DNA of 64,000 nucleotides from Octopus vulgaris (Eukaryota): the NCBI GenBank assembly GCA_951406725.2, contig OX597819.1:82708001-82772000 (forward strand), written 5' to 3'. A program made the position numbers and the translations under genes. Below, piece by piece: positions 21,801 through 56,704 of the stretch. The notes below the pieces were generated by a model. That model did no database searches. It was not told where the DNA came from and was given only the letters and a program-made list of their open reading frames with translations. Position 1 is the first letter of the stretch, and each line of letters starts with the position of its first letter.

Positions 21801-23609
21801 AGGTTTATTCCATCAGAGCTAATTTGGAGCTAAACGACAATAGCGGCAATTTTATTGGAAATATTTTCAACACTAATGAACCTGATCTAAATCAGAAGTA
21901 GTACAATGAAAGAAATGATTAAAAGAGAATATTCATGTTTCTGGTAGGAAATAGAGAATTATGTTATTTATGAAATAGAAAATGGTTATACCTTAGGGAG
22001 CATTTTGAAAATTTTATTGAGTTATACATCAATTTTTGTCACAAATTCATAAATTAATTACAGTTTTTAATGAATTACTTAAGCATTTAAATGAAAATTA
22101 GTATTTTACTTATTTAAATCAGTATATTACTGATTTAAAATTGAAATATGCATCTTCACATCTTAGTCTATTTGGGTACATTGCCAATATCCTCTATTAT
22201 CCTAAGTTTTAACACAGTAATTAAGATTTAGTATTTCATACCACTTGCATTCTTAAATTACAATCCCTTCTTAATTTTTTATCCCTATTGTCATCAATTT
22301 TAGTTTAATTTTAAGTTCAAAAACTAATTGTGACACTATATTACCAATAATATACTATTTAAATACTTCTGTGTTACCATGTTTTGCTTTATTTAATTGG
22401 ACTTGTTTTAAAGTTGAAGAAAAAGAAAAATAATTATTTGTATGCCAAGGAATTCTATTAAGAGACAATTATTCTGAGGTACATATTTCATCGAAATTAT
22501 ACTTTCTTTCATTTTAGTTTTGGTGAATAATAAGAATTTGGTTTTTATTTATTATTAAGAAATTTTTTCTTTATATCTGATGCCATTTTGATACAAAGTG
22601 TACAATAAAACTAACTTCTGGCATTTTAAAAGCAAACTCTAAGTTGCTATCAACTCAATACATCTTTATAAAAGCAACATGCTTCTCTATTTCATCAGGT
22701 TTCAAACACTAACATAACACTCTTTTATGATATCATTGTGTACTTTCTTATTATTAAAAAAAAAAAAAAAACTTGTTTTATCAGTTAGTATATATAATAG
22801 GAAATTTGTTTATGAAACCTGAGATGTCTCAGCTGTTAAAACCTCTGTAAATTATTCAGTTGTAGCTTTCTTTCTTAACTCCTTTCAATTCAAAGTTTCT
22901 TTTTAACATCTGTCTACAAATGATGCTTCATGTACAATGTATTTTTCAATAAAACAAATTTTGAATTCCTAGATGCATGTTTTCTAATAATTTCTCCTAG
23001 TCTGCAAGAATGTATTCCATTTATTCTTCAACTTTTGAGTTTGAACATTTTCATAAATAGATATCATTCAACAGTCATATAAACCAAATGTTCAATTATA
23101 TGCCATTCTAAAAGCTTGCATATAAACAAACATTCTTCAAATCTTCAAAGTTTATAAAATTAACTATTATAATTCCCAAAAATAGAAAACAAAATATTTG
23201 TGTTTATGCTTTTGCAAGTATTTCCTTCAGAAAGAGCACATTAATATTCATTGATTTCCTATATAAGAAAGCAAATATCACAATTCTGTTCTTCATAAAC
23301 ACCGGCATAAATGCATTCATTTGGACTGGTTGAACAGTAGTTATGTCTATGATCAAGAACTAGTAATGAGCATAGAACTATTGTATGTTTTACCCTCCTT
23401 TACAGTCATAGATCACATTCATGCTATGCAGCTAATTTCCAAATGCCTTTCATTTCCTCTCCATGGGAGCATTGTCACTTTTGTTGTGTTCAAACCAACC
23501 AGATATTTCATCAATATATTTTGACTGGTACAGTTCTATATTTAAGAGATGAAGAATTATGTACATTATTTACATTTGACAGATATTTGTCCTCATCTTG
23601 TTTGTTGGT

Positions 23610-23655
23610 AACACAATGTTTCGGCTGATATATCCTCCAGCCTTCATCAGGTGTC
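23610..23655 (-). ncRNA. minimal type I hammerhead ribozyme fold
   Basis: GACAC-CUGAUGA-A-GGCUG(loop)CAGCC-GAAA-CA-U-U-GUGUU; stems I and II pair. Confidence 0.65.
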
Positions 23656-23833
23656 TTGGGGAAATTTCAAGCCTGGGTTCTCATTCCTAAGGTATTTTTC
23701 GATGTTATTATTATTCTTAGTACAGTCTACATTCCTTGTCACTCAGTACAGTCTACATTCCTTGTACAGTTCATGTCACACTACTGTGTATATACTACAA
23801 GTTTTCATTCTGTTGTTGCTGCATGCTTTCTTT

Positions 23834-24043
23834 CTGGACCTATTCTTGTACATCAGCTGCAATTTTCAATTACAAGTATTTGACTCATGTTAAATGCAGT
23901 ATCAGACAGTGGCTCTCATGGCTTCTGATCTTAACTGACTGGACCTATTCTTGTACATCAGCTGCAATTTTCAATTACAAGTATTTGACTCATGTTAAAT
24001 GCAGTATCATACAGTGGCTCTCATGGCTTCTGATCTTAACTGA
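23834..24043 (+). repeat. 105-bp tandem duplication
   Basis: 23834-23938 repeated at 23939-24043 with one visible mismatch; ctgga microhomology at the junctions. Confidence 0.92.
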
Positions 24044-24193
24044 CTGGAAGTGTTATCATGTACATTGCTTTGTCTTGGTATAAGAGATGGGCAACAGCAA
24101 ATATTCTGTTCAATACCACAGATCTGCTTGTCACTGCCTGGAATCTTGGGGCATATGGCGTAGTGGGCTACTAACCCTAAGAAATTTCCCCAA

Positions 24194-24239
24194 AACACCT
24201 GATGAAGGCTGGAAGGTATATCAGCCGAAACTTTGTGTT
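24194..24239 (+). ncRNA. minimal type I hammerhead ribozyme fold
   Basis: AACAC-CUGAUGA-A-GGCUG(gaaggtatat)CAGCC-GAAA-CU-U-U-GUGUU. Confidence 0.65.
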
Positions 24240-26059
24240 AACAACAAACAAGATGAGGACAAATATCTGTCAGTTGTAAATAATGTAAATATTGTATTTT
24301 GACTAGTATTGTATTTTATCTTAACTGCAACCTACTTGACTTGGATTACTAAAGCAATCCATGCTGATTGTCAATAAGTGAAGTGAAGAGAAGGGAAGAA
24401 AGATGCAGTCAATCATCGTTAATGATTGTTTCCAACATTTTGGAAATACTGGAAAAACAAGTAGTGTCATCAGAATTTTTCTTGAAGATTGAGCATACTA
24501 TTTGTGGATACACACGACGACAAGCTGAAAAACCTGATTAAGATAGGAGCTATTTCTAGAGCACTTTGATTGTAATTAAACAAGTGAAATTAATGCAGTA
24601 CAGCAATTGAAGATTAGTAGTGGTTTCTGTCAGATTTTAGCATGTTGTAGGAGGAAAATCATGAGCAGAAGCAAAGTATAGATGCATTGCTGACACAATC
24701 ATCTAGATTAAATTGGAGAAGCAATGATTATAACTCAATATTATAGAAGATATCTTTTGCAAGAAACCAAAATGTAAAGCTGCAGACTGGAAGACAGTAA
24801 AGTATGTTAGTTGTTTGCTGAATGAAAAACAGACAAAAAATACTGATCTTACTTTTAATGTATGGAAATGTTTCAGCTTAACTACAATTAAATTCAAGTA
24901 TAATCTGAATTTCACTGACTTGCTTTGCTTTCTAATTACAGAAGCTGATATAAGTAAAGTTCTTTAAAGAAAATTCCACATATTTTCAGTTAGGATTTAA
25001 ATCATCTCTTATAAAATTAAGTGCATTTTAAATCTGTAGATTACTGGGGTAACTTCAAAGATTAAGCTTGTGCAATTTAGAAAGTATAGCAGCAAGAAAT
25101 ACAAATAGCCATTAGTTACTTGTATTATTTGACTTGAAAAATACCAGTAGTTTACATCAAAGTATCTTATTAGTATAAAGTATAAAAATCAAAATATCAC
25201 TTCGCTACCAATTTGTTCAATCAATATTTGGTTATTACGTGCAGCCTTTAGATATAACAGGTATAATTTTACATGCAAATACTTGTCTGTAGAAAACAGT
25301 ATCACTACTTGTAATTTCTGCATTATTTGAAGATAGCCCTCATTTCATCTTTACAACAACAATCAGATGTCTAACATCACTGTATACATTTGTTCATGAA
25401 ATTGATAAATGTCAGAATATCTCTTCCACAGTATTCATTATCATCATTATCATCAGTTTACTGTCGTTTTTACATGTTGCATAGGTTTCACAGATTTTCT
25501 TTGATACGGCACCTATATGTTATAGTCTCTCATTACTAAGGTAATTAATCATTCCAGAAATGAATACTGGTCATATGGCAATATCTGCAGCATCATTGGT
25601 CTCATCTACTCATGTATCTATCATAATTTTAGTCAACCAACCAAGGGATTTTATTTTTCTGTCATATGCATTTTCAATAAGATAAAATCCAAAATCCAAG
25701 GTAATAACTAATGGGCTACCTCAGCACCTTTAATATGATTTATAACTATATCTTTAGGCAACTCACTCTTCTTTAATACATATGTAATATCCTTGACAAT
25801 TGCATCAACTTCTCAGATAATATGTTGTAAGGAACCAAAGCTGCTCTTCTAAAATAGATCTTTATACTCTTAAGTTTGGTAAATTCGAATGGTTCATACT
25901 TGATTTTTTTTATCAAACTACTTCATTCTATGTTCCTTGAGCATTGATTGCAAGTGCCCTCAGTATTTGGCAGGGACTGTTAAACTATTTCATGTATACT
26001 TTTTGAGACATCTGGTCGATTGGTTGATATTAATCTATCAGTATAGATAACCATGTTCC

Positions 26060-26438: not shown

Positions 26439-26729
26439 GTCACTCAGTACAGTCTACATTCCTTGTACAGTTCATGTCACACTACTGTGTATATACTACA
26501 AGTTTTCATTCTGTTGTTGCTGCATGCTTTCTTTCTGGACCTATTCTTGTACATCAGCTGCAATTTTCAATTACAAGTATTTGACTCATGTTAAATGCAG
26601 TATCAGACAGTGGCTCTCATGGCTTCTGATCTTAACTGACTGGAAGTGTTATCATGTACATTGCTTTGTCTTGGTATAAGAGATGGGCAACAGCAAATAT
26701 TCTGTTCAATACCACAGATCTACTTGTCA
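26439..26729 (+). repeat. ~290-bp segment duplicated inside the 23562-24287 element
   Basis: Near-identical to 23738-24133 once the 105-bp tandem duplication is removed. Confidence 0.92.
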
Positions 26730-27175
26730 TTTGTTTGACCTTAATCAGTTGAGCATATCCCTTAGTGGCTAATGATATGTGCATTCAGGGACCTTTTGCA
26801 TGGGATGGGCTACTCAACTTAAAGAAAATGCAAACTGAGCCCCACCTGCAAGGTCATGCACTCTTTATCTTGACATGAGATCACCATGTCATGTACATAT
26901 AGTTATGATGCATGTACCTGGTGTGCCCTTATCAGGCAGGTAGTCATGATGGTTATGCTGGGCTTCATATATTTTACCCCAGTGTCACTTTGATGGCATG
27001 CACCACTCTCTCACTCAATAATAATAATAATGATAATAATAATGGTTTTAAATTTTTTCACAAGAGGAGCCATTTTAAGGGAGGGTTTAAGTTGATTACA
27101 TCAACCCAGTGTTTCACTGGTACTTAAATTATCAACTCCAAAAGGATGAAAGGCAAAGTCAACCTAGAAAGAATA

Positions 27176-30909: not shown

Positions 30910-32158
30910 CAGGGTTGGACAAAATAATGGAAACACTTTAAAATTTCTTTCAAACAAATTTATTTTAATATAGGATGGGACCGCCTTTGGCAGTAATTAC
31001 AGCTTGAATTCTAGGAGGTTTGAACTCATACAAATTTTGAATTGTTTCCAAAGGAATTTTAGTCCATTCTTCAGCTAAAGCAGTCTCCAGATCTTGTAGT
31101 AATGATAGTGGAGGATATCAACTTTAAAATGCACCATAAATGTTCAATGATATTGAAATCCGGGGACTGTGGTGAAGACGTTTAACTTCACTAGAATGTT
31201 CCTCATGCCATTCAGTAACAACTTTAGCTGTGTGAATTGGTGCATTATCATCCTGAAAGATTGTGTTTCCCTCTGGAAACAGTTCTGCAACCATAGGATG
31301 AATTTGATGAGATAAAATGCTTAAATAGTCTTGACTATTAATTCTGTCATGAAGGGAAACCATTGGGCCAGTGGATTTCCAAGATATAGCCCCCCCCCCC
31401 CCCCCGATCATCACAGATCCTCCTCCGTGTTTAACAGTTAGAAGAAGGCAGTCTGGGTCAAATGCTTCTTTTGACTGTCTCTGCATATATATTCAGCCAG
31501 TTGTTGGTAAAGAATGACTCATCCAAGAAAATAACATTCTTCCACTGCTCTAGGGACCAATTTTGTAGGTTTTTACTCCACTGTAAACATTTTGCAATGT
31601 TTGTCTTTGAAAGTAGTGGTTTTCTGATTGCAGCCCTCCCATGAAATCCGGCTTTGTGCTGCTCCCAGTGTGCAGGTTTTTGTGGAAACTGGGTTCTCGA
31701 GTTTGTCAATGAGCTCTGCGTAGTTTTGGGAGCTGTACTTTTGTGATCCTCTCTAACAATTCACGTAAGAGTCTGATGGTCCCTATCTGAAAGGTTTAGT
31801 TTTCTTCCGGAGTTTTGTTTCAACATGGAAGTTTTTACCCTCTTTCTCAAAGGTTGTCATTACTTTCGAGACAGCTCTTTTTGATACACCAAACATATCA
31901 GCTGTTTTTATTACACTTGTGCCTGTTACACAATCTCTAACAATTTGACCTCTTTGAAAGTCCGATAGATCTGTCATTTTAATGAATTTTAATTCCCTTT
32001 TTCTGATGATATCCGAAAAGAGACAGCAATTTTAGCAAAATATATCAAACAACACTAATAATAAATCACAAAAAACATAAAAATAAACAAGCTTTTGATG
32101 GTTTTATAGATATTTCAAAATTATGATGGTAGGTTTACATTATTTTGTCTAACCCCTG
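30910..32158 (-). mobile_element. Tc1-like DNA transposon (DD34E type), near full length, frameshifted transposase ~31977-31060
   Basis: TIRs cagggttggacaaaataatg / cattattttgtctaacccctg with TA on the left; motifs MTDLSDFQRGQIV, WKNVIFLDES, TVKHGGGSVM, FQDDNAPIH, SPDFNIIE. Confidence 0.9.
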
Positions 32159-32923: not shown

Positions 32924-34453
32924 CGAGGGCGTTCAATAAGTAATGCCCCTGACCCACTTCCCATAGCAGTAGAGCAACGAAACTTGGCACAGTTATTAGT
33001 CTTTTTCTATATAGGAACCACCCGGAATTACGCATTTCTCCCATTGTTTGATGCAGCTCTGGAGACCGTTTTTGTAGAAGACCCCAGCTTGGTCCTCCAA
33101 CCTGAAATCAAGGCTGCATCATCTGTGCTTCTATATATTATCAGTTGCTACCTCAAGGATAACATGGAACGGTCCAATTTAGTTAGTTACGAGGAGCGTT
33201 CAATAAGTAATACCCCTGACCCACTTCCCATAGCAGTAGAGCAACGAAACTTGGCACAGTTATTAGTCTTTTTCTACATAGGAACCACCCAGAGTTACGC
33301 ATTTCTCCCATCGTTTGATGCGGCTCTGGAGACCGTTTTTGTAGAAGAACCCAGCTTGGTCCTCCAACCTCAACGTGACTTCAGAAATCAAGGCTGCATC
33401 ATCTGGGAAATGCTTTCCTTTCAAAAACAACTTCATGATTGGGAAGAGGTGAAAATCAGAGGGTGCAAGGTCAGGAAAGTAAGGGGGATGGGGAGGAGTT
33501 CATAGCCATACGCCTGTGCTTCTGATCTGGCAACAAGCAAGTTGTGGACCGGAGCGTTGTCCTGCAGGAGGAGGATGCCTTTGCTGATCTTGCCCCGCCT
33601 CTAGATTTTGATAACTTCTCTTAATTTCCTCAAAAGTGAAGCATAATAGGCTCCTGCAATTGTGGTACCCTTTGCCAGGAAATCTGTCATCACTACTCCG
33701 TCCTGGTCCCAGAAGACTGTGATCATGACCTTGCCAGCAGAGGGCTGCACCCTTGCCTTCTTTAGAGGGGGTGAGTCACGGTGCTTCCACTGCATTGACT
33801 GGGCTTTGGTCTCTGGATCATCGTGATGGACCCAGGTTTCATCCTGTGTAATCAGTCTTTTGAAAAATTTTGACTCATCTTCTTGGCACATCTCCAAATT
33901 CACCCTCGAGCACTCGACGCGTTCTTGCTTCTGGAAAGGCGTGAGCAACCTGGGAATCCATCTGGCAGACACCTTTTGCATATGCAAATGGTCATGAATG
34001 ATAGTTTCCACAGACCCGGTACTAATTTTGACCTCATGGGCTATTTGGCGAATAATTATGCGTCGATCTTCCAAAATGGCAGCCTCAACTTGACGGACAG
34101 ATGCCTCATCAATGGCAGAAGGGGGCGACCAGATCTGGGAGCTGTTTCCACAGAGTTCCGACCATGTTTGAATTCACGATGCCAGCGTTTTACAAGGTCA
34201 TATGATGGGGCATCATCACCATAAGTTACTTTTATTTCATCAAAAGTCTCCCGTGGTGTGCGTCCTTTCAAATACAAAAACCGGATCACTGCTCGACACT
34301 CAACAGGCTCCATTTCACACTTGACTCGGTTCAAACACCTGTAAATCAGAAACCACAATTAATTCAGAGCTGTAATTTGCCACTTACTCTATAGAGATAT
34401 AAATGATTGCACATGCAAGTGGGTCAGAGGCATTACTTATTGAACGTCCCTCG
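32924..34453 (-). mobile_element. mariner (DD34D-type) transposon 33190-34453 with an extra duplicated end at 32924-33187
   Basis: TIR cgagg(g/a)cgttcaataagtaatgcccctgacccactt at 32924 and 33190, inverted at 34417-34453; each flanked by TA. Confidence 0.9.
33263..34313 (-). pseudogene. mariner transposase pseudogene
   Basis: MEPVECRAVIRFLY..., ARWIPRLL, LITQDETWVHH, LLQDNAPVH, SDFHLF, WEKCVTLGGSYVEKD*; frameshifts plus an in-frame stop at 33601. Confidence 0.9.
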
Positions 34454-36511: not shown

Positions 36512-36895
36512 TCATCATCATTTTACGTCCGCTTTCCGTGCTGTCATATGTTGGACGGTTTGACTGAGGACTGGTGAGCCAGAGGCTGCACCAGGCTCAA
36601 TCTGATCTAGCAAGTTTCAACAGCTTGATGCCCTTCCTAATGCCAACCACTCCAAGAGTGTAGTGGGTGCTTTTACGTGCCACCAGCATGAGTCCCAGTC
36701 AGTTGGTACAGGCAACGACCACGCTCAAAAGGTGTTTTTCATGCTACCTGCATGGGAGCCTGTCTGGTGACACTGGCTCGAATGTCTTTTTCACATGCTA
36801 CCAGCACATGTACGGGTAAAGCGATGCTGGCAACGATCATGCTCGAATGGAGCTTTTTACATGTCACTGGCATGGGAGCCAATCCATCACCCTGT
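36512..36895 (-). mobile_element. RTE LINE 3' end with four degenerate 3' UTR repeat units
   Basis: Reverse complement of the 39270-39450 tail, plus repeated gtgcttttta(c)gtgccacc-like motifs at ~36668, 36731, 36784 and 36850. Confidence 0.8.
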
Positions 36896-36927
36896 ATATA
36901 TTTGTATGTGTATATATATATATGTAT

Positions 36928-38767
36928 CTAAGAAAGAGGCTTGGAGAAGCCATTATGAAAGACTGCTGAATGTGGAGAATGAATGGGAGGAGGAGAGCCT
37001 GCCAAATGTTGACCCAGTAGAGGGACCAGCTATCCAAATAGACAGCTCCCTTGTAGTTAAGGCAATTAAGGATATGAAACCAGGTAAAGCCCCCGGCCCA
37101 TCAGGTATCACTGCTGAGATGCATAAAACAGCTGGTTATGCGGGCTATGGCCTAGTCACCTGTATTGTTAACCAGGTAGTTCATAATGGAGTCATACCCA
37201 ATGACTGGCGTAGCAGCACCATAGTCAACTGCTACAAGGGTAAGGGTGATGCTCTAGATAGAAATAACTACAGGGGTATTAAACTGTTGGATCAGGTGAT
37301 GAAGGCCACAGAGAAGGTCATGACCCATCTCATTAGGGAGAGAATTTGCTTAGATGAGATGCAGTTCGGTTTTGTACCGGGTAGAAGTACCACTGATGCT
37401 ATATTCCTGGTCCGACAACTGCAGGAGAAGTACCTAGCTAAAGATAAACCCCTCTACATAGCTTTTGTGGACTTGGAGAAAGCCTTTGACTGGGTTCCCC
37501 GATCCCTTATCTGGTGGCCGATATGGAAACTGTTGATTGACGAATGGCTAATAAGGGCTGTACAGGCTCTATACAGAGAGGCTGTCAGCAAGGTTAGGAT
37601 TGGCAACGAATATAGTGAAGAATTCCAGGTAGAAGTAGGTGTACACCAGGGCTCAGCCCTCAGTCCCCTTTTATTCATCATAGTCCTCCAGGCAATAACA
37701 GAGGAATTCAAAACAGGTTGCCCCTGGGAGCTCCTCTATGCTGATGACCTGGCCCTCATAGCAGAATCACTGAATCACTACCGGAACTAAAAAAGAAATT
37801 TCGGGTGTGGAAACAAGGGTTAGAATCAAAGGGCCTTAGAGTAAATGTAGCGAAGACCAAAGTTATAGTATGCAGAAAGGCGAACTCAGCACACACCCTA
37901 TCGGGCAGGTGGCCCTGCTCGAGCTGTAGGAAAGGTGTAGGTAGAAACTCCATAAGATGCACCCAGTGTAAGCTATGGACGCATAAGAGGTGCAGCAACA
38001 TCAAAGGGAAATTAACTGATAAGATAGCTATCATGTGCGGCAGATGCACAGGGACAATAGACACCACAGACACTCAGAAAACAGATTCCATCACACTCCA
38101 GGGAGAGAAACTAGAAGTAGTTGATAGTTTCCGCTACCTGGGTAACCAAGTTAGTAGTGGGGGTGGATGCTCAGAGAGTATCACCACTAGAACACGAATA
38201 GCCTGGGTAAAGTTTAGAAAGCTCCTACCCCTACTGGCGACAAAGGGTCTCTCACTCAGAGTGAAAGGTAGATTGTATGATGCATGTGTGCGAACTGCCA
38301 TGCTTCACGGCAGTGAAACATGGGCCGTGACTGCAGAGGACATGCGTAGACTTGAAAGAAATGAAGCTAGCATGATCCGCTGGATGTGTAATGTCAGTGT
38401 GAATGCACGACAGAGTGTAAGCGCCCTGAGAGAAATGCTAGGCATAAGAAGCATCAGATGCGGTGTGCAAGAGTGGCGCTTGCGATGGTATGGTCATGTA
38501 CTGCGGATGGATGAGGAGAGATGTGTGAAGAAGTGCCACTCCCGAACAGTTGAAGGAATTAGGGGGAGAGGTAGACCCAGGAAGACATGGGATGAGGTAG
38601 TCAAGCATGACCTCAGAGCGTTGGGCCTCATTGAGGCAATGGCGAAGGACCGAGATCTCTGGAGATGTACTGTGACTACTAAGAGCCGGGATGCTTCCAG
38701 CACCAGTTCCGCATACCCCCTGCCCATTCAAAGTACCTTGGATCCCGGAACATCTCGCTGTGCTTGA
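36928..38767 (+). pseudogene. RTE reverse transcriptase ORF (5'-truncated, one frameshift near 37770) with inserted PHD finger
   Basis: ORFs 36795-37790 and 37805-38767 join across a frameshift just after YADD. Confidence 0.9.
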
Positions 38768-52146: not shown

Positions 52147-54660
52147 GAACCAGTTTACAATAAACGTGTGTGATACCTTAGGGATCTGGATACTGATTGG
52201 AATCATAGCAATCATTCTTGCTTCCACAGTATATTTGATTACAACTGAGAAACAATTCTTTTTGAAAATTCAACTCGGAAGTACTCCAGGACAAGTCCTT
52301 CTGCAGTTAAATAAGAATGGAAAATTTTTTCTGGTTACATTGCTCTTATACCATTTTATTAGATACAGGCATCAAATCAACATGCTGCAAAACTAAATGC
52401 TTGAATATCAAGTCATCATATGGATGGTGAAAGTGAGGATCAAAACAATGACTTGTATGTTTTTTCTTAATACATTGTGACAGCTATGAATGTGGATATA
52501 TTTATCACTGTTGTGTTTTGTCAAAGGAGAGCGACTCCTTTAAGATGAATGTGTGTTCATAACACACTTGAATCATTAGCACAAAGAAACTCTGGAACAC
52601 CTAGTGTTTCAACAGCATTGTGTCTTATCACCTAGAGGCACCCTAGGCTATCAAATCTAATAAGAGCTTATGGCTCTTTATAATGTTACAAAACAAATTG
52701 TCTGCTGATGTATGCTGATATATGCCAACCAGAAATAAACCATCATATGCACAGAGAACAATAAGAATCAAAATAACATGCATATTTATTCTAACGTCTT
52801 TGTTACTGAGTTCCTTTGATTAAATGAGCAACAAAGATTCCCTGTACCTACTAACTTCATCTCATCTTCAGCTTTCTGCCTCATGGCAAATTGCATCTAC
52901 TACAATACTGCAGTTGTTACTCTCAATTGCATCTTTATTGATTAGCAGAATACAATTTTTCACATATTCCAATTGCAGTCAAGAACAGAAACTAAGTAAT
53001 GTCATTGAATCTTATGTCAATTTTCTGTATGGCCTCAACATACATGTACTTTCTGAGGTTGTAACTGCTTGTGTATATCAAGAGAAGGTATTAGAGATTT
53101 ATTTATTTATAGAATCTTGGCTAAGATTCCTTGAGAAATCTCCATTGATTTTGAAACAAGCAATCATCCAGTTTTGTTCTCTAAAAGCTATTCAGAAAAA
53201 CTTAGACGCTTATCAGCAATCTTTCTTCCTTCTAAATGCAATTACCATACTATTACTATCATTAACAAATTAATCATTAGATAAAGAAGCTGCTTTTGTG
53301 CTAAGTTTCTACAACAAGTGTTCTGTTTGTCATGTAAGAATTTGTCATGGCCACAAAATATATGGACATTTTTCACAAGCATGTCAATCAATACAAAATC
53401 TGCATTTGCATTCCTTACTACTAGATGAATCCTTGAAGGCCATCAACTTTAAAAAGCTACTATCTGGTTCTTCATCTTTTTTTTTTAGACATCTCCTTAT
53501 TTAGTTAATTGTATAAAAATATCTATTTAAATGTTTTGACCTATATTTCTGTATAATTCTGGAATATATGTTTCTTAAACATTATGACTCTGTTAAATTT
53601 AAACACAAAGGATTGTGAATAAATCATTCCATAACTTGATTTGTTCCTATGTTAGTGACCCCCCATCCTTTCGTATTCTCCCACCAATACATTGAATTGA
53701 AACCAATTACTTCTAAAACTCAACACTTTTCTTCATTTGATAGAATGTTTATTAAGAAAGAGATTAGATGGCTTCTTGATGTTAGTTTTATTGATCTCTC
53801 AATCTCTTTGAGATGGGACAAGTAGTATTAGTTTCAAATAATGCCTTACTGCAAATAATGTCTTGTTATTGATCATTCACAAATGCTAAATCATTATTAC
53901 TTGTACTTGTAATTCCAACGAGGAATCTCAACATTTTAGCTGAATAAAATAATTTGATTCTTAGCAACTATTTCTCATCACAACTCTTTTGAATATAAAT
54001 GAACAAGATTATATGTCAATATAATTAAAAATTTCACGGTAAATTCTTGACTGGAATGTTTGGAAAATTAAAGAAAATATTGTCAGTACATAGAATTTCA
54101 AATTTGAATTAGAGATATTTTGTCATGTCACTGCCTACAGTCATTCTACTACATTATTTTTCAACTTCTTCCTTTTTTCATTATCACCATTCATATTTCA
54201 ATTTCTGTAATGTTTGAGATTGTTGATTAAATACTAATTAATTAACAGAATTGTTTTTACTAATAATCCTATATTAAATAAATAGTGTTTTTATCATGAT
54301 GACTTTAATTTATTAAAAGTTTCAGTGGGAAAAGGAATTTCAAATATAAAAGTGTAATTAAGAGATATTGCAAATGTTATGACCACTATTTTAACCTATT
54401 TGTTCATGTAAAAAAAAAATGACACCAATAATTTGCTCCAACTGCATGTTATTCAACTTTTAAAACCTACTAAGCTGAAAAAGGTTAATGGTTAAGTGGA
54501 AGTATATCAGGACCCAATTATACCAAATTGGCACAAATCACTGACGAAGAGAAAGGAAAGAAAAGTCAACATCAAGATATTATTAGAAGTTATTATTAAA
54601 ATTTAATTTAATATATATATATATTCTGTTTGTATATATTATTGTTTTCATTTCTTGCAG

Positions 54661-54876
54661 ATCCTTGTGATGGGTTCATTTGTTCCGATCAAACAGTCTG
54701 TTTGTTGGATGATAAACGAAAGCCAGTCTGCCGTTGTAACCTGATGTGCTCACTAGATATCGCAACAGTTTGTGGTACTGATGGGATCACATATAGCAAT
54801 GACTGCTATCTGAGGACGGAAGCATGCAAGAGTCAGCGAGACATCAAAGTTTACCACCATGGGAGCTGTAAAAATC
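54661..54876 (+). CDS. internal exon encoding one follistatin module (FOLN + Kazal); likely agrin-like protein
   Basis: Acceptor tttcttgcag|, donor |gtgagc; 216 bp, phase 1-1; DPCDGFICSDQTVCLLDDKRKPVCRCNLMCSLDIATVCGTDGITYSNDCYLRTEACKSQRDIKVYHHGSCKN has the 10-Cys follistatin pattern with VCGTDG.TY.N.C. Confidence 0.92.
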
Positions 54877-56704
54877 GTGAGCAATATCATTTATATCTTA
54901 TATTGTTAAATACATTTATATACCTATATAAGATATTTGAGGAAGAAAAGTTTTGTAGATTATTTATAGAAAGAAGCAAGTTTTTAATGTCTTATCTTAT
55001 GACTTTGTTTATGAAAAAGGAATTCTTAAATAATTAAATTCTTCCAGGTTACAGAAAGGAATCATAGAATGTTTCTATTTTGATTCATTTGAAATATTTC
55101 TTCTCAACCTTTTTTCCAAACCCAACAGCTTTCTAACTATGGTTTAGAAACATTATTAGATTCTCTGGTAATAATTCGGAAACCATTCTGTCGGCTTCTT
55201 GGAAGAAATTCCTCCAGTTTGTTGACTCATATTCTTTTCTTCTTTCAACTCTTGAATTGACTGAAATGTCTTTCTTCAAAGGGGAAACTAAACTAAGTAG
55301 AGTTTTAAAATGTTTATAATAAAATTTAATATTATTAATCAAATGAAATGAATTATAAACATAAAGAGAAATATTCTATTTAATATTATTTCTGAAACAT
55401 AGTCATTGTTTAGAAATACTAAACACATGCTAATTCTAATAGTAGTACCTGTGGAGTGCAGATTAATTAAAGGTAAGCAGTATAAATAAATCATGAAATA
55501 TTGTATAAGATATTATATAAAGACATATTTGTGTTTGTCTATAAATAAATGTAATCAATGTAATTCTGAATAAATATGAAACATTAAAATTCCACATAAT
55601 ACTTTAAAGCATACACAAAATCCTAAAAAGTATTTATTACAATTTTCCTTCTGTTATCTTTTATTTGTTTGAGAAGTCTACCATTAAATCATACGCTATA
55701 GCCATCATTTATAAACTGGTGGTGTTTAAGACATATGCGACTGCTGCTTCTTATCACAACTCATAAAAATGACCATATCAAATATATCAACAAAAGCTTG
55801 TAAGCAGCAGAGTTATCTTGTTTTCTCTAATGACATGCTGTGCATTTTTTGCATCTGATTTCATATCAGTGTTGTGTATTGGGAATTTCTTGAATAAGTG
55901 TGAAACAAATATTTTTGATACTGATCACAGAGTTGTCAAAGGCTTCAGTTACTCTCCTTTATCTCACTCTTTCTTGTGTGTATATACATATATACAAATA
56001 TATATGTGTGTGTGTGCGTGTGTGTATATACACACACACATATACACTCATCTGTAATAATTTCTATTTATGCAAAATGTTCCATATATCCATTTATATA
56101 GAATATTGGCTTATTCATGCAAAAAGCCATTCAACTAAGTGGGTGATCAGCAATTAGTTGGATTATGTTTTTTAATGATCACACATACAGATGTAATCAT
56201 TTGGTAGAATGATGATCTGCATTTCATTTTACTCCACTGAAAAGGGATATATACATACATACACAAAATACCAACTAAAATTTAAAGACCAAATTTCAAT
56301 AATGGAATCAAACCTTTCAGAGTTTGGCTCATATTTGAAGTAAAGAGTAAAGCATATGTATGCACAAGCATGCACACAGGCACACATGCATACATACACT
56401 CATGCACAAACAAAATTACGGGCATTTTTATGCATGCATAGACCAATTAAATGACAGACTAAGATGTTCAGAGCTAAGAAGGAAAGCAATTAGCACCAAA
56501 CTTCAAAATATTTAAAGTAAAAATAAGAATACAATCAACAATAGCCCCTCAAGCATGATAATCTAAAAATGCAAATAAAATAACGTTTAGTGAAGTTATA
56601 ACCAATATTACAATGAAAACCATATAGGAAAGACTAGTGATATAGAACTAAATGTATGTCCTTTTAAGTTTTATTTAAATCCTCCCAATATATATATATA
56701 TCAT

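What the first reader, a model, noticed from the sequence alone, without database searches (positions are those of the whole stretch)
23562..24287. Hammerhead-capped inverted repeat that has captured nearby genomic DNA
Seen: two ~107-bp inverted arms, each with a hammerhead core, enclose 23738-24133. That segment is a near-identical copy of 26439-26729, with an added 105-bp tandem duplication (ctgga microhomology) and a 21-bp duplication at 23719. Inference: repeated template jumping by a Penelope-type RT, or templated repair, packaged host sequence between ribozymes, giving a ribozyme-bounded transduction cassette. Either strand would carry one hammerhead at its 3' end and fold into a long hairpin.
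Basis: partly seen in the sequence, partly recalled or inferred. Interest (0 to 1): 0.7.

Follow-up and report, generated by a model that had tools for sequence, protein, structure and literature searches.

The report
Penelope insertion patched with neighbouring DNA
An old mirror-image insertion of a common jumping gene holds a 400-base copy of DNA from 2.7 kb away, likely pasted in much later when a break was repaired; it is a scar, not a ribozyme-cut cassette, although a few sister insertions carry similar copies of nearby DNA that likely date from the insertion itself.

Summary
The structure is real; the cassette reading is not supported. The arms are the two halves of one ordinary head-to-head insertion of a high-copy Penelope-like element: a tail on one arm, a target-site duplication around both, and the same build in 155 of 253 sampled loci. 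The filler copies 26439-26729, with 105-bp and 26-bp slippage repeats and short microhomologies. It sits inside the left copy, not between two caps. It differs from its source at 2 of 401 bases, while the arms differ at 7 of 107 (family mean 7.1%, minimum 1.9%). So it was most likely added long after insertion, by microhomology-guided break repair (0.6). Both minimal hammerheads have lost their stem-III palindrome and lie on opposite strands, so no RNA is cut at both ends. Three of 155 other pairs hold a 29-96-bp inverted copy of DNA from 0.9-3.4 kb away, exactly at the inversion point and about as diverged as the arms. Capture during insertion therefore likely occurs in this family and is the main rival (0.28). 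The scan noted such flank copies in Penelope junctions of other genomes before.

The parts
23517..23530 (+). Left target-site duplication (core 11 bp, 23518-23528)
   Evidence: 14 bp, 1 mismatch to 24295-24308; 45 of 83 one-tailed pairs probed show a 10-nt flank repeat with 0-1 mismatch
23529..23716 (-). Main (tail-bearing) copy of the Penelope-like 3' unit: ~30-bp tail 23529-23560, hammerhead region, (AAT)n run
   Evidence: 40 of 40 scored genome hits at 91-100%; 8 mismatches in 190 to the family consensus; tail on exactly one arm in 125 of 142 pairs
23610..23655 (-). Minimal type-I hammerhead motif; stem-III palindrome ACGT changed to ACAT (23617); predicted inactive
   Evidence: motif definition from PMC4209133 passages
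23717..23739 (+). First short templated copy of 26445-26466, then a 26-bp jump back (GT microhomology)
   Evidence: 1 of 22 differs; joint bridged by an X4 contig
23738..23943 (+). Templated copy of 26439-26644
   Evidence: 0 of 206 differ
23939..24133 (+). Templated copy of 26535-26729 after a 105-bp jump back at CTGGA; ends at a GTCA microhomology
   Evidence: 2 of 195 differ, at 24010 and 24126; joints not bridged by listed contigs
24130..24151 (-). Main copy resumes in its tRNA-like head, about 2 bp from where it was left; 12-bp deletion at a GGAATC repeat
   Evidence: 0 mismatches to consensus positions 202-217 and 224-235
24149..24182 (+). Inversion point (GGG) and inverted head with two microhomology deletions (about 12 and 90 bp)
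   Evidence: consensus positions 1-18 and 29-46, then 135
24181..24295 (+). Inverted, tail-less second copy (right arm)
   Evidence: 6 of 107 differ from consensus; best other genome hit 96%
24194..24239 (+). Minimal hammerhead motif; stem-III palindrome ACGT changed to ACTT (24232); predicted inactive
24295..24308 (+). Right target-site duplication
26439..26729 (+). Template (source) of the filler; 26439-26594 had no other genome hit, 26595 onward is a second high-copy repeat that continues to 27043
   Evidence: the source continues the repeat past GTCA whereas the filler stops there, which sets the direction of copying

Best explanation
This is one old head-to-head insertion of a Penelope-like element whose left copy holds a copy of DNA from 2.7 kb downstream, likely added much later when a break was repaired by microhomology-guided synthesis. 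Shown: two inverted copies with a one-sided tail inside one target-site duplication; a filler that leaves the left copy and rejoins it about 2 bp further on; four joints with 1-5 bp microhomology; two backward slips (26 and 105 bp); a roughly tenfold gap in divergence between filler and arms. Inferred: the inverted repeat or a stalled fork broke near the (AAT)n/head boundary. The 3' end annealed to the downstream DNA, was extended with two slips, and returned at GTCA (a polymerase-theta- or MMBIR-like route; enzyme not shown). The hammerheads are passengers and predicted inactive.
For: Standard build: 155 of 253 loci holding the core are head-to-head pairs (281 examined, 28 from a mis-aimed search held no core); PMC8557442 describes the inverted 5'-truncated copy and the 30-40-bp one-sided tail. 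Age gap: filler vs source 2 of 401, arm vs arm 7 of 107, Fisher p = 4e-4. In 119 other pairs the arms differ by 7.1% on average and never by less than 1.9%, so no sampled insertion is as young as the filler. Target-site repeats are also diverged (about 10% among 66 probes), so arm divergence reflects age rather than copying error. Best genome hits to the arms are 96-97% (40 candidates scored each), so no young parent locus was seen. The three other captures differ from this one: inverted, at the inversion point, 14 of 211 differences against 2 of 401 (p = 1.4e-5).
Against: Capture of nearby DNA at insertion does seem to occur in this family (3 of 155), so an old capture here is not far-fetched. 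Gene conversion between direct repeats 2.7 kb apart could erase age; 2 of the 3 differences lie within 8 bp of the filler's edges. The three deletions beside the filler cannot be dated. The 105-bp joint and the right joint lack read support. No empty allele was seen: contigs of X1, X5 and X6 run through the source start unbroken and show no filler joint, but they show none of this locus's inner joints either, so this is inconclusive.
Confidence: 0.6

Rival explanations
1. The filler was captured during insertion: the growing cDNA end jumped from the element RNA to nearby DNA and back before folding over to make the second arm (by the element's reverse transcriptase or a host polymerase). Later gene conversion or re-repair from the source reset its divergence and added the slips.
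For: L014 (96 bp, 1.6 kb away, 92%), L208 (86 bp, 3.4 kb away, 94%, only other hit in the genome) and L327 (29 bp, 0.85 kb away) carry such copies exactly at the inversion point with 2-6 bp microhomology. Arms of a pair share derived non-CpG variants (66 observed, shuffles mean 20, maximum 36), as expected if they come from one template. The filler runs in the direction of the nascent cDNA and rejoins the element almost without loss. R2 snap-back and L1 templated insertions are precedents.
Against: Needs an extra, near-complete conversion of three copies of the 105-bp piece. Here the filler is direct, longer, and not at the inversion point. Divergence 0.5% against 7%.
Confidence: 0.28
2. Part or all of the interior is an assembly error (most plausibly the 105-bp tandem copy).
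For: Near-identity to a nearby sequence; no listed contig bridges the 105-bp or the right joint in 5 runs.
Against: The X4 contig from another haplotype matches 23690-23923 exactly. X2's contig ends at 26468, 30 bases into the source, where a duplication would break it (X2 may be the assembly's own sample). Joints have clean microhomologies. At 24126 the filler keeps the base of the second repeat's other copies while the source has changed.
Confidence: 0.08
3. A ribozyme-bounded cassette: hammerheads cut out an RNA carrying host sequence, which the Penelope enzyme then moves.
For: Both arms hold a recognisable hammerhead core; either strand is predicted to fold into a long hairpin (-287 and -270 kcal/mol).
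Against: Opposite strands, so one cut at most per RNA. Stem-III palindrome lost in both. Minimal hammerheads need a same-strand partner and cut poorly in vitro (PMC4209133); cleavage was not needed for insertion in vitro (PMC11167929). The unique filler part has no third copy.
Confidence: 0.02

Closest known systems
Insertions of endonuclease-bearing Penelope-like elements with inverted pLTR and one-sided tail (PMC8557442, passages; PMC11167929, passages)
   Same: Inverted 5'-truncated second copy, ~30-bp tail on one arm, hammerhead in the end repeat, RT followed by HTH_animal/GIY-YIG-type sequence in longer copies.
   Different: The end unit starts with a tRNA-like head where most copies begin; this copy holds a 400-bp local filler.
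Minimal PLE hammerheads (Cervera and de la Pena 2014, PMC4209133, passages)
   Same: Core, extra base between positions 9 and 10.1, G10.1-C11.1 pair, no stem-III loop.
   Different: Palindromic 15.2-16.2 pair lost in both arms; no same-strand tandem partner.
Class 2 templated sequence insertions, DNA patches at double-strand breaks (PMC5110952, abstract only)
   Same: A copied patch of genomic DNA inserted with no poly(A) or target-site repeat of its own.
   Different: Template is 2.7 kb away rather than distant; two backward slips.
L1 templated insertions (bioRxiv 10.1101/2024.08.27.596794, passages) and R2 snap-back junctions (PMC11371274, passages)
   Same: cDNA end primes on itself or on nearby DNA before the 5' joint forms; fits L014, L208 and L327.
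   Different: L1 templates are typically under 250 bp and within 15 bp of the site (22 cases); here they are 0.85-3.4 kb away, and the window's filler looks younger than the insertion.
Non-LTR retrozymes (bioRxiv 10.64898/2026.07.22.740005, listing and passages)
   Same: Non-coding, hammerhead-bearing, tied to Penelope end repeats.
   Different: Retrozymes are same-strand tandem units; this is an inverted pair with a single-locus filler.

Membership tests
Endonuclease-bearing Penelope-like element insertion | Inverted 5'-truncated copy next to the 5' end of the main copy | tested here: met
   Window parse; 155 of 253 loci with the core
Endonuclease-bearing Penelope-like element insertion | 30-40-bp tail at one end only | tested here: met
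   23529-23560 only; 125 of 142 pairs one-sided, 5 both, 12 none
Endonuclease-bearing Penelope-like element insertion | Parent ORF with RT and C-terminal GIY-YIG endonuclease | tested here: met
   RVT_1 above cut-off in L052 and L042; L043 nearest to HTH_animal/GIY-YIG clusters at score 0.95, GIY-YIG on 13-18% of members. Pfam did not call GIY-YIG directly (0 of 2 endonuclease-side fragments). Fragments come from broken copies elsewhere in the genome.
Endonuclease-bearing Penelope-like element insertion | RT falls in a PLE clade by phylogeny | not tested
   No tree built; clade not assigned
Minimal PLE hammerhead | CUGANGA and GAAA core, stems I and II, G10.1-C11.1 | tested here: met
Minimal PLE hammerhead | Palindromic 15.2-16.2 pair allowing the dimer stem III | tested here: not met
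   ACAT (left) and ACTT (right); consensus ACGT kept in 101 of 238 arms
Minimal PLE hammerhead | Self-cleavage | not testable with these tools
   Needs an in vitro assay
Retrozyme / ribozyme-bounded mobile cassette | Two hammerheads on the same strand bounding the unit | tested here: not met
   Opposite strands
Retrozyme / ribozyme-bounded mobile cassette | Further copies of the unit with its cargo | tested here: not met
   26439-26594 hit only this locus and its source among 40 scored candidates of 5041; the tool warns that no match does not prove rarity
Templated insertion at a repaired break | Copy of identifiable genomic DNA with microhomology joints and little loss at the site | tested here: met
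Templated insertion at a repaired break | Pre-insertion (empty) allele exists or existed | tested here: inconclusive
   Contigs of X1, X5, X6 show no filler joint but also no other inner joint
tRNA-derived SINE (head of the unit) | tRNA-derived head with A and B boxes and a defined 5' start | tested here: inconclusive
   A- and B-box-like words seen by eye in the consensus (box patterns recalled); 78 of 118 tail-bearing copies with a head start at -12..+8, 72 more had no head hit; ARAGORN and Rfam do not call it

The most novel reading that the evidence does not exclude
Penelope insertions are sealed by a cDNA end that samples chromosomal DNA kilobases away before it folds back. About 2% of this family's inverted pairs would then be small local duplications made by the insertion itself (3 of 155; 95% CI 0.4-5.6%), and this locus would be the longest, multi-jump case, its age masked by later conversion.
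Probability: 0.28. Interest if true: 0.5.

Novelty: new member of a known kind. Interest (0 to 1): 0.3.

Why it matters
How Penelope elements make their inverted repeats is described as unresolved (PMC8557442). The sister cases put a copy of DNA from 0.85-3.4 kb away exactly at the inversion point, and paired arms share variants. Both favour a fold-back model in which a free cDNA end searches for short matches, and both can be counted genome-wide. The window's own filler mostly shows that such inverted pairs can be rewritten later by repair. No function is indicated.

Tried and rejected
Rfam: nothing at gathering score in the window; only chance hits at E up to 1 in 3 loci. ARAGORN: no tRNA in the window or consensus; at a very low threshold only a spurious call outside the head. 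One search was mis-aimed: 28 of its 29 new loci held no core and gave no data. Ten of the 13 flagged fillers were not local copies: microsatellite or internal duplication (L008, L073, L083, L205), other repeats (L090, L201, L229, L283, L342), and L067, whose 240 bp has no source within 5 kb and only weak partial genome hits. Among 72 unpaired copies (most seen to only 1.5 kb each side) 10 had a local repeat near the element; I inspected 3 (L024, L076, L216), none was a capture, and 7 were not inspected. A finer screen of 42 short fillers gave no new case. Enrichment over background is weak over whole spacers (P 0.08-0.24 for the two cases of 60 bp or more) and clear only for a +-20-bp junction window chosen afterwards (P 0.007). 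Background was 6 events in about 590 kb; of the 8 rows, one was L014 itself and two adjacent rows were merged. No RNA holder was listed. Empty allele not resolved. The stem-III duplex energies were too small to use. No gene frame at the locus: ORFs over it look non-coding by eye. Literature searches listed no paper on local DNA capture by Penelope elements or on a tRNA-headed Penelope unit. The library lacks most subscription papers; Ohshima and Okada 1994 on octopus tRNA SINEs was seen only as a reference and may cover this repeat. No supplements were read.

Full report
Observation. The inverted arms (111 nt, 93%), the copy of 26439-26729 and both duplications are in the sequence. The filler has three pieces: 23718-23739 (source 26445-26466, 1 of 22 differs), 23738-23943 (0 of 206) and 23939-24133 (2 of 195). 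The joints carry short matches: C, GT, CTGGA and GTCA. The first half of the source had no other genome hit; from 26595 it is a second high-copy repeat. The filler spans that boundary, so its template was this locus. The source continues the second repeat while the filler stops, so copying went from 26439 to 23738.

What the arms are. Each arm is the 3' end unit of a high-copy family. The unit is a tRNA-like head, an (AAT)n run, a hammerhead region and a ~30-bp tail. Longer copies continue upstream into a broken ORF with RT (Pfam RVT_1) and an HTH_animal/GIY-YIG-like part, which is the Penelope layout. Two loci in 400 kb of evenly spaced sample suggest on the order of 10^4 loci, with a wide margin. 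Head-to-head pairs were 68 of 116, 53 of 105 (28 without core), and 29 of 40, 3 of 18 and 2 of 2: 155 of 253 loci with the core, with no duplicates. Most of these loci are top-scoring hits, not a random draw. The tail is on one arm only in 125 of 142 pairs. PMC8557442 (passages) describes this inverted copy and tail as usual for Penelope-like elements. In the window one target-site repeat encloses both arms, so they are one insertion. The left copy breaks off at 23716 and resumes at 24130 with about 2 bp missing; three small microhomology deletions and the inversion point follow.

Hammerheads. Both match the minimal type of PMC4209133 (passages) in core, stems and the G10.1-C11.1 pair. That type has no stem-III loop and is thought to work as a same-strand dimer through a palindrome. 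The consensus has ACGT; the arms have ACAT and ACTT. Inactivity is predicted, not shown.

Timing. Filler and source differ at 2 of 401 bases; the arms differ at 7 of 107 (p = 4e-4) and at 4 and 6 of 107 from consensus. Across 119 other pairs arm divergence averages 7.1%, minimum 1.9%. Target-site repeats are diverged too (the probe includes boundary error). No near-identical parent of either arm was found among the scored hits. The simplest reading is that the filler is about ten times younger than the insertion. Gene conversion could mimic this but would have to level three copies of the 105-bp piece.

Thirteen of 155 pairs had 20 bp or more of non-family filler. Three are copies of local DNA: L014 (96 bp, inverted, 1.6 kb away, 92%), L208 (86 bp, inverted, 3.4 kb away, 94%, the only other hit in the genome) and L327 (29 bp, inverted, 0.85 kb away). 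All three sit at the inversion point with 2-6 bp microhomology, and together they differ from their sources at 14 of 211 positions, like the arms. Paired arms share derived variants three times more than shuffled pairs, consistent with one template and fold-back, or with conversion between arms. I infer that capture at insertion occurs in about 2% of pairs. Against a background of 6 local duplications in about 590 kb the excess is weak over whole spacers and clear only at the junction (window chosen afterwards). The window's filler differs from these three in place, orientation, length and age.

Reads. An X4 contig (another haplotype, another organism label) matches 23690-23923 exactly. Flank contigs of X1, X2, X4 and X6 run 24-30 or more bases into the outer ends of the arms, so the element is likely shared. 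No listed contig bridges the 105-bp or right joints, and absence of joints in X1, X5 and X6 proves nothing because contigs drop short links between repeats.

Comparison. It works like a class 2 templated insertion (PMC5110952, abstract) placed in a standard Penelope insertion. The sister cases work like R2 snap-back junctions (PMC11371274, passages) and L1 templated insertions (bioRxiv 10.1101/2024.08.27.596794, passages), but with templates further away. It fails the retrozyme tests. Polymerase theta and MMBIR are named from general knowledge. Other papers seen: PMC11167929 (passages), bioRxiv 10.64898/2026.07.22.740005 (passages), PMC10886601 and PMC6962438 (passages; nothing relevant). Searches listed no paper on this capture in Penelope elements. 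Earlier notes of this scan report flank copies in Penelope junctions of other genomes and the tRNA-like head in this one; they are unchecked and I read them after my own screen. The host looks like an octopus (recalled repeat families, and those notes).

Verdict. Real structure, ordinary arms, a filler best explained by late repair (0.6) or by capture at insertion with later conversion (0.28). Not a ribozyme cassette. Interest 0.3.

Noticed in passing
family consensus; L004, L052:1630; window 24130-24182: The Penelope end unit begins with a tRNA-like head (A/B-box-like words). 78 of 118 tail-bearing copies with a head start there and only 7 extend well into the ORF's 3' UTR. This suggests a short Pol III transcript moved by the Penelope enzyme, or a fold-back hot spot at the palindromic start.
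   Followed up: partly
L014:1779-1883, L208:1743-1828, L327:5135-5163: Three sister pairs with inverted copies of DNA 0.85-3.4 kb away at the inversion point.
   Followed up: yes
L067:2114-2352: A 240-bp filler inside the (AAT)n run of one arm, with no local source and only weak partial genome hits; origin unexplained.
   Followed up: partly
window 26595-27043; L034, L035, L090, L201, L229: A second high-copy repeat of about 500 bp, flanked by (AAT)n, that has inserted into the (AAT)n run of the Penelope unit in at least two sampled loci; the window copy has an internal deletion near 26783. Class not determined.
   Followed up: no
L283:4540-4700: A 160-bp palindromic insert (about 80% self-complementary) inside the (AAT)n run of a pair; looks like a miniature inverted-repeat element.
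   Followed up: no
window 54612-55037 (+): Open frame with a cysteine pattern like a follistatin/Kazal module (recalled), probably an exon of a host gene.
   Followed up: no
window 36771-38767 (+), 33601-34358 (-), 31124-31760 (-): Frames that look like a broken RTE-type LINE and two Tc1/mariner-type transposase remnants (by eye).
   Followed up: no
L046, L052, L053: These three ORF-bearing loci on contig C17 share about 97% identity over 2.9 kb including flanks, so they are segmental duplicates rather than independent insertions.
   Followed up: no
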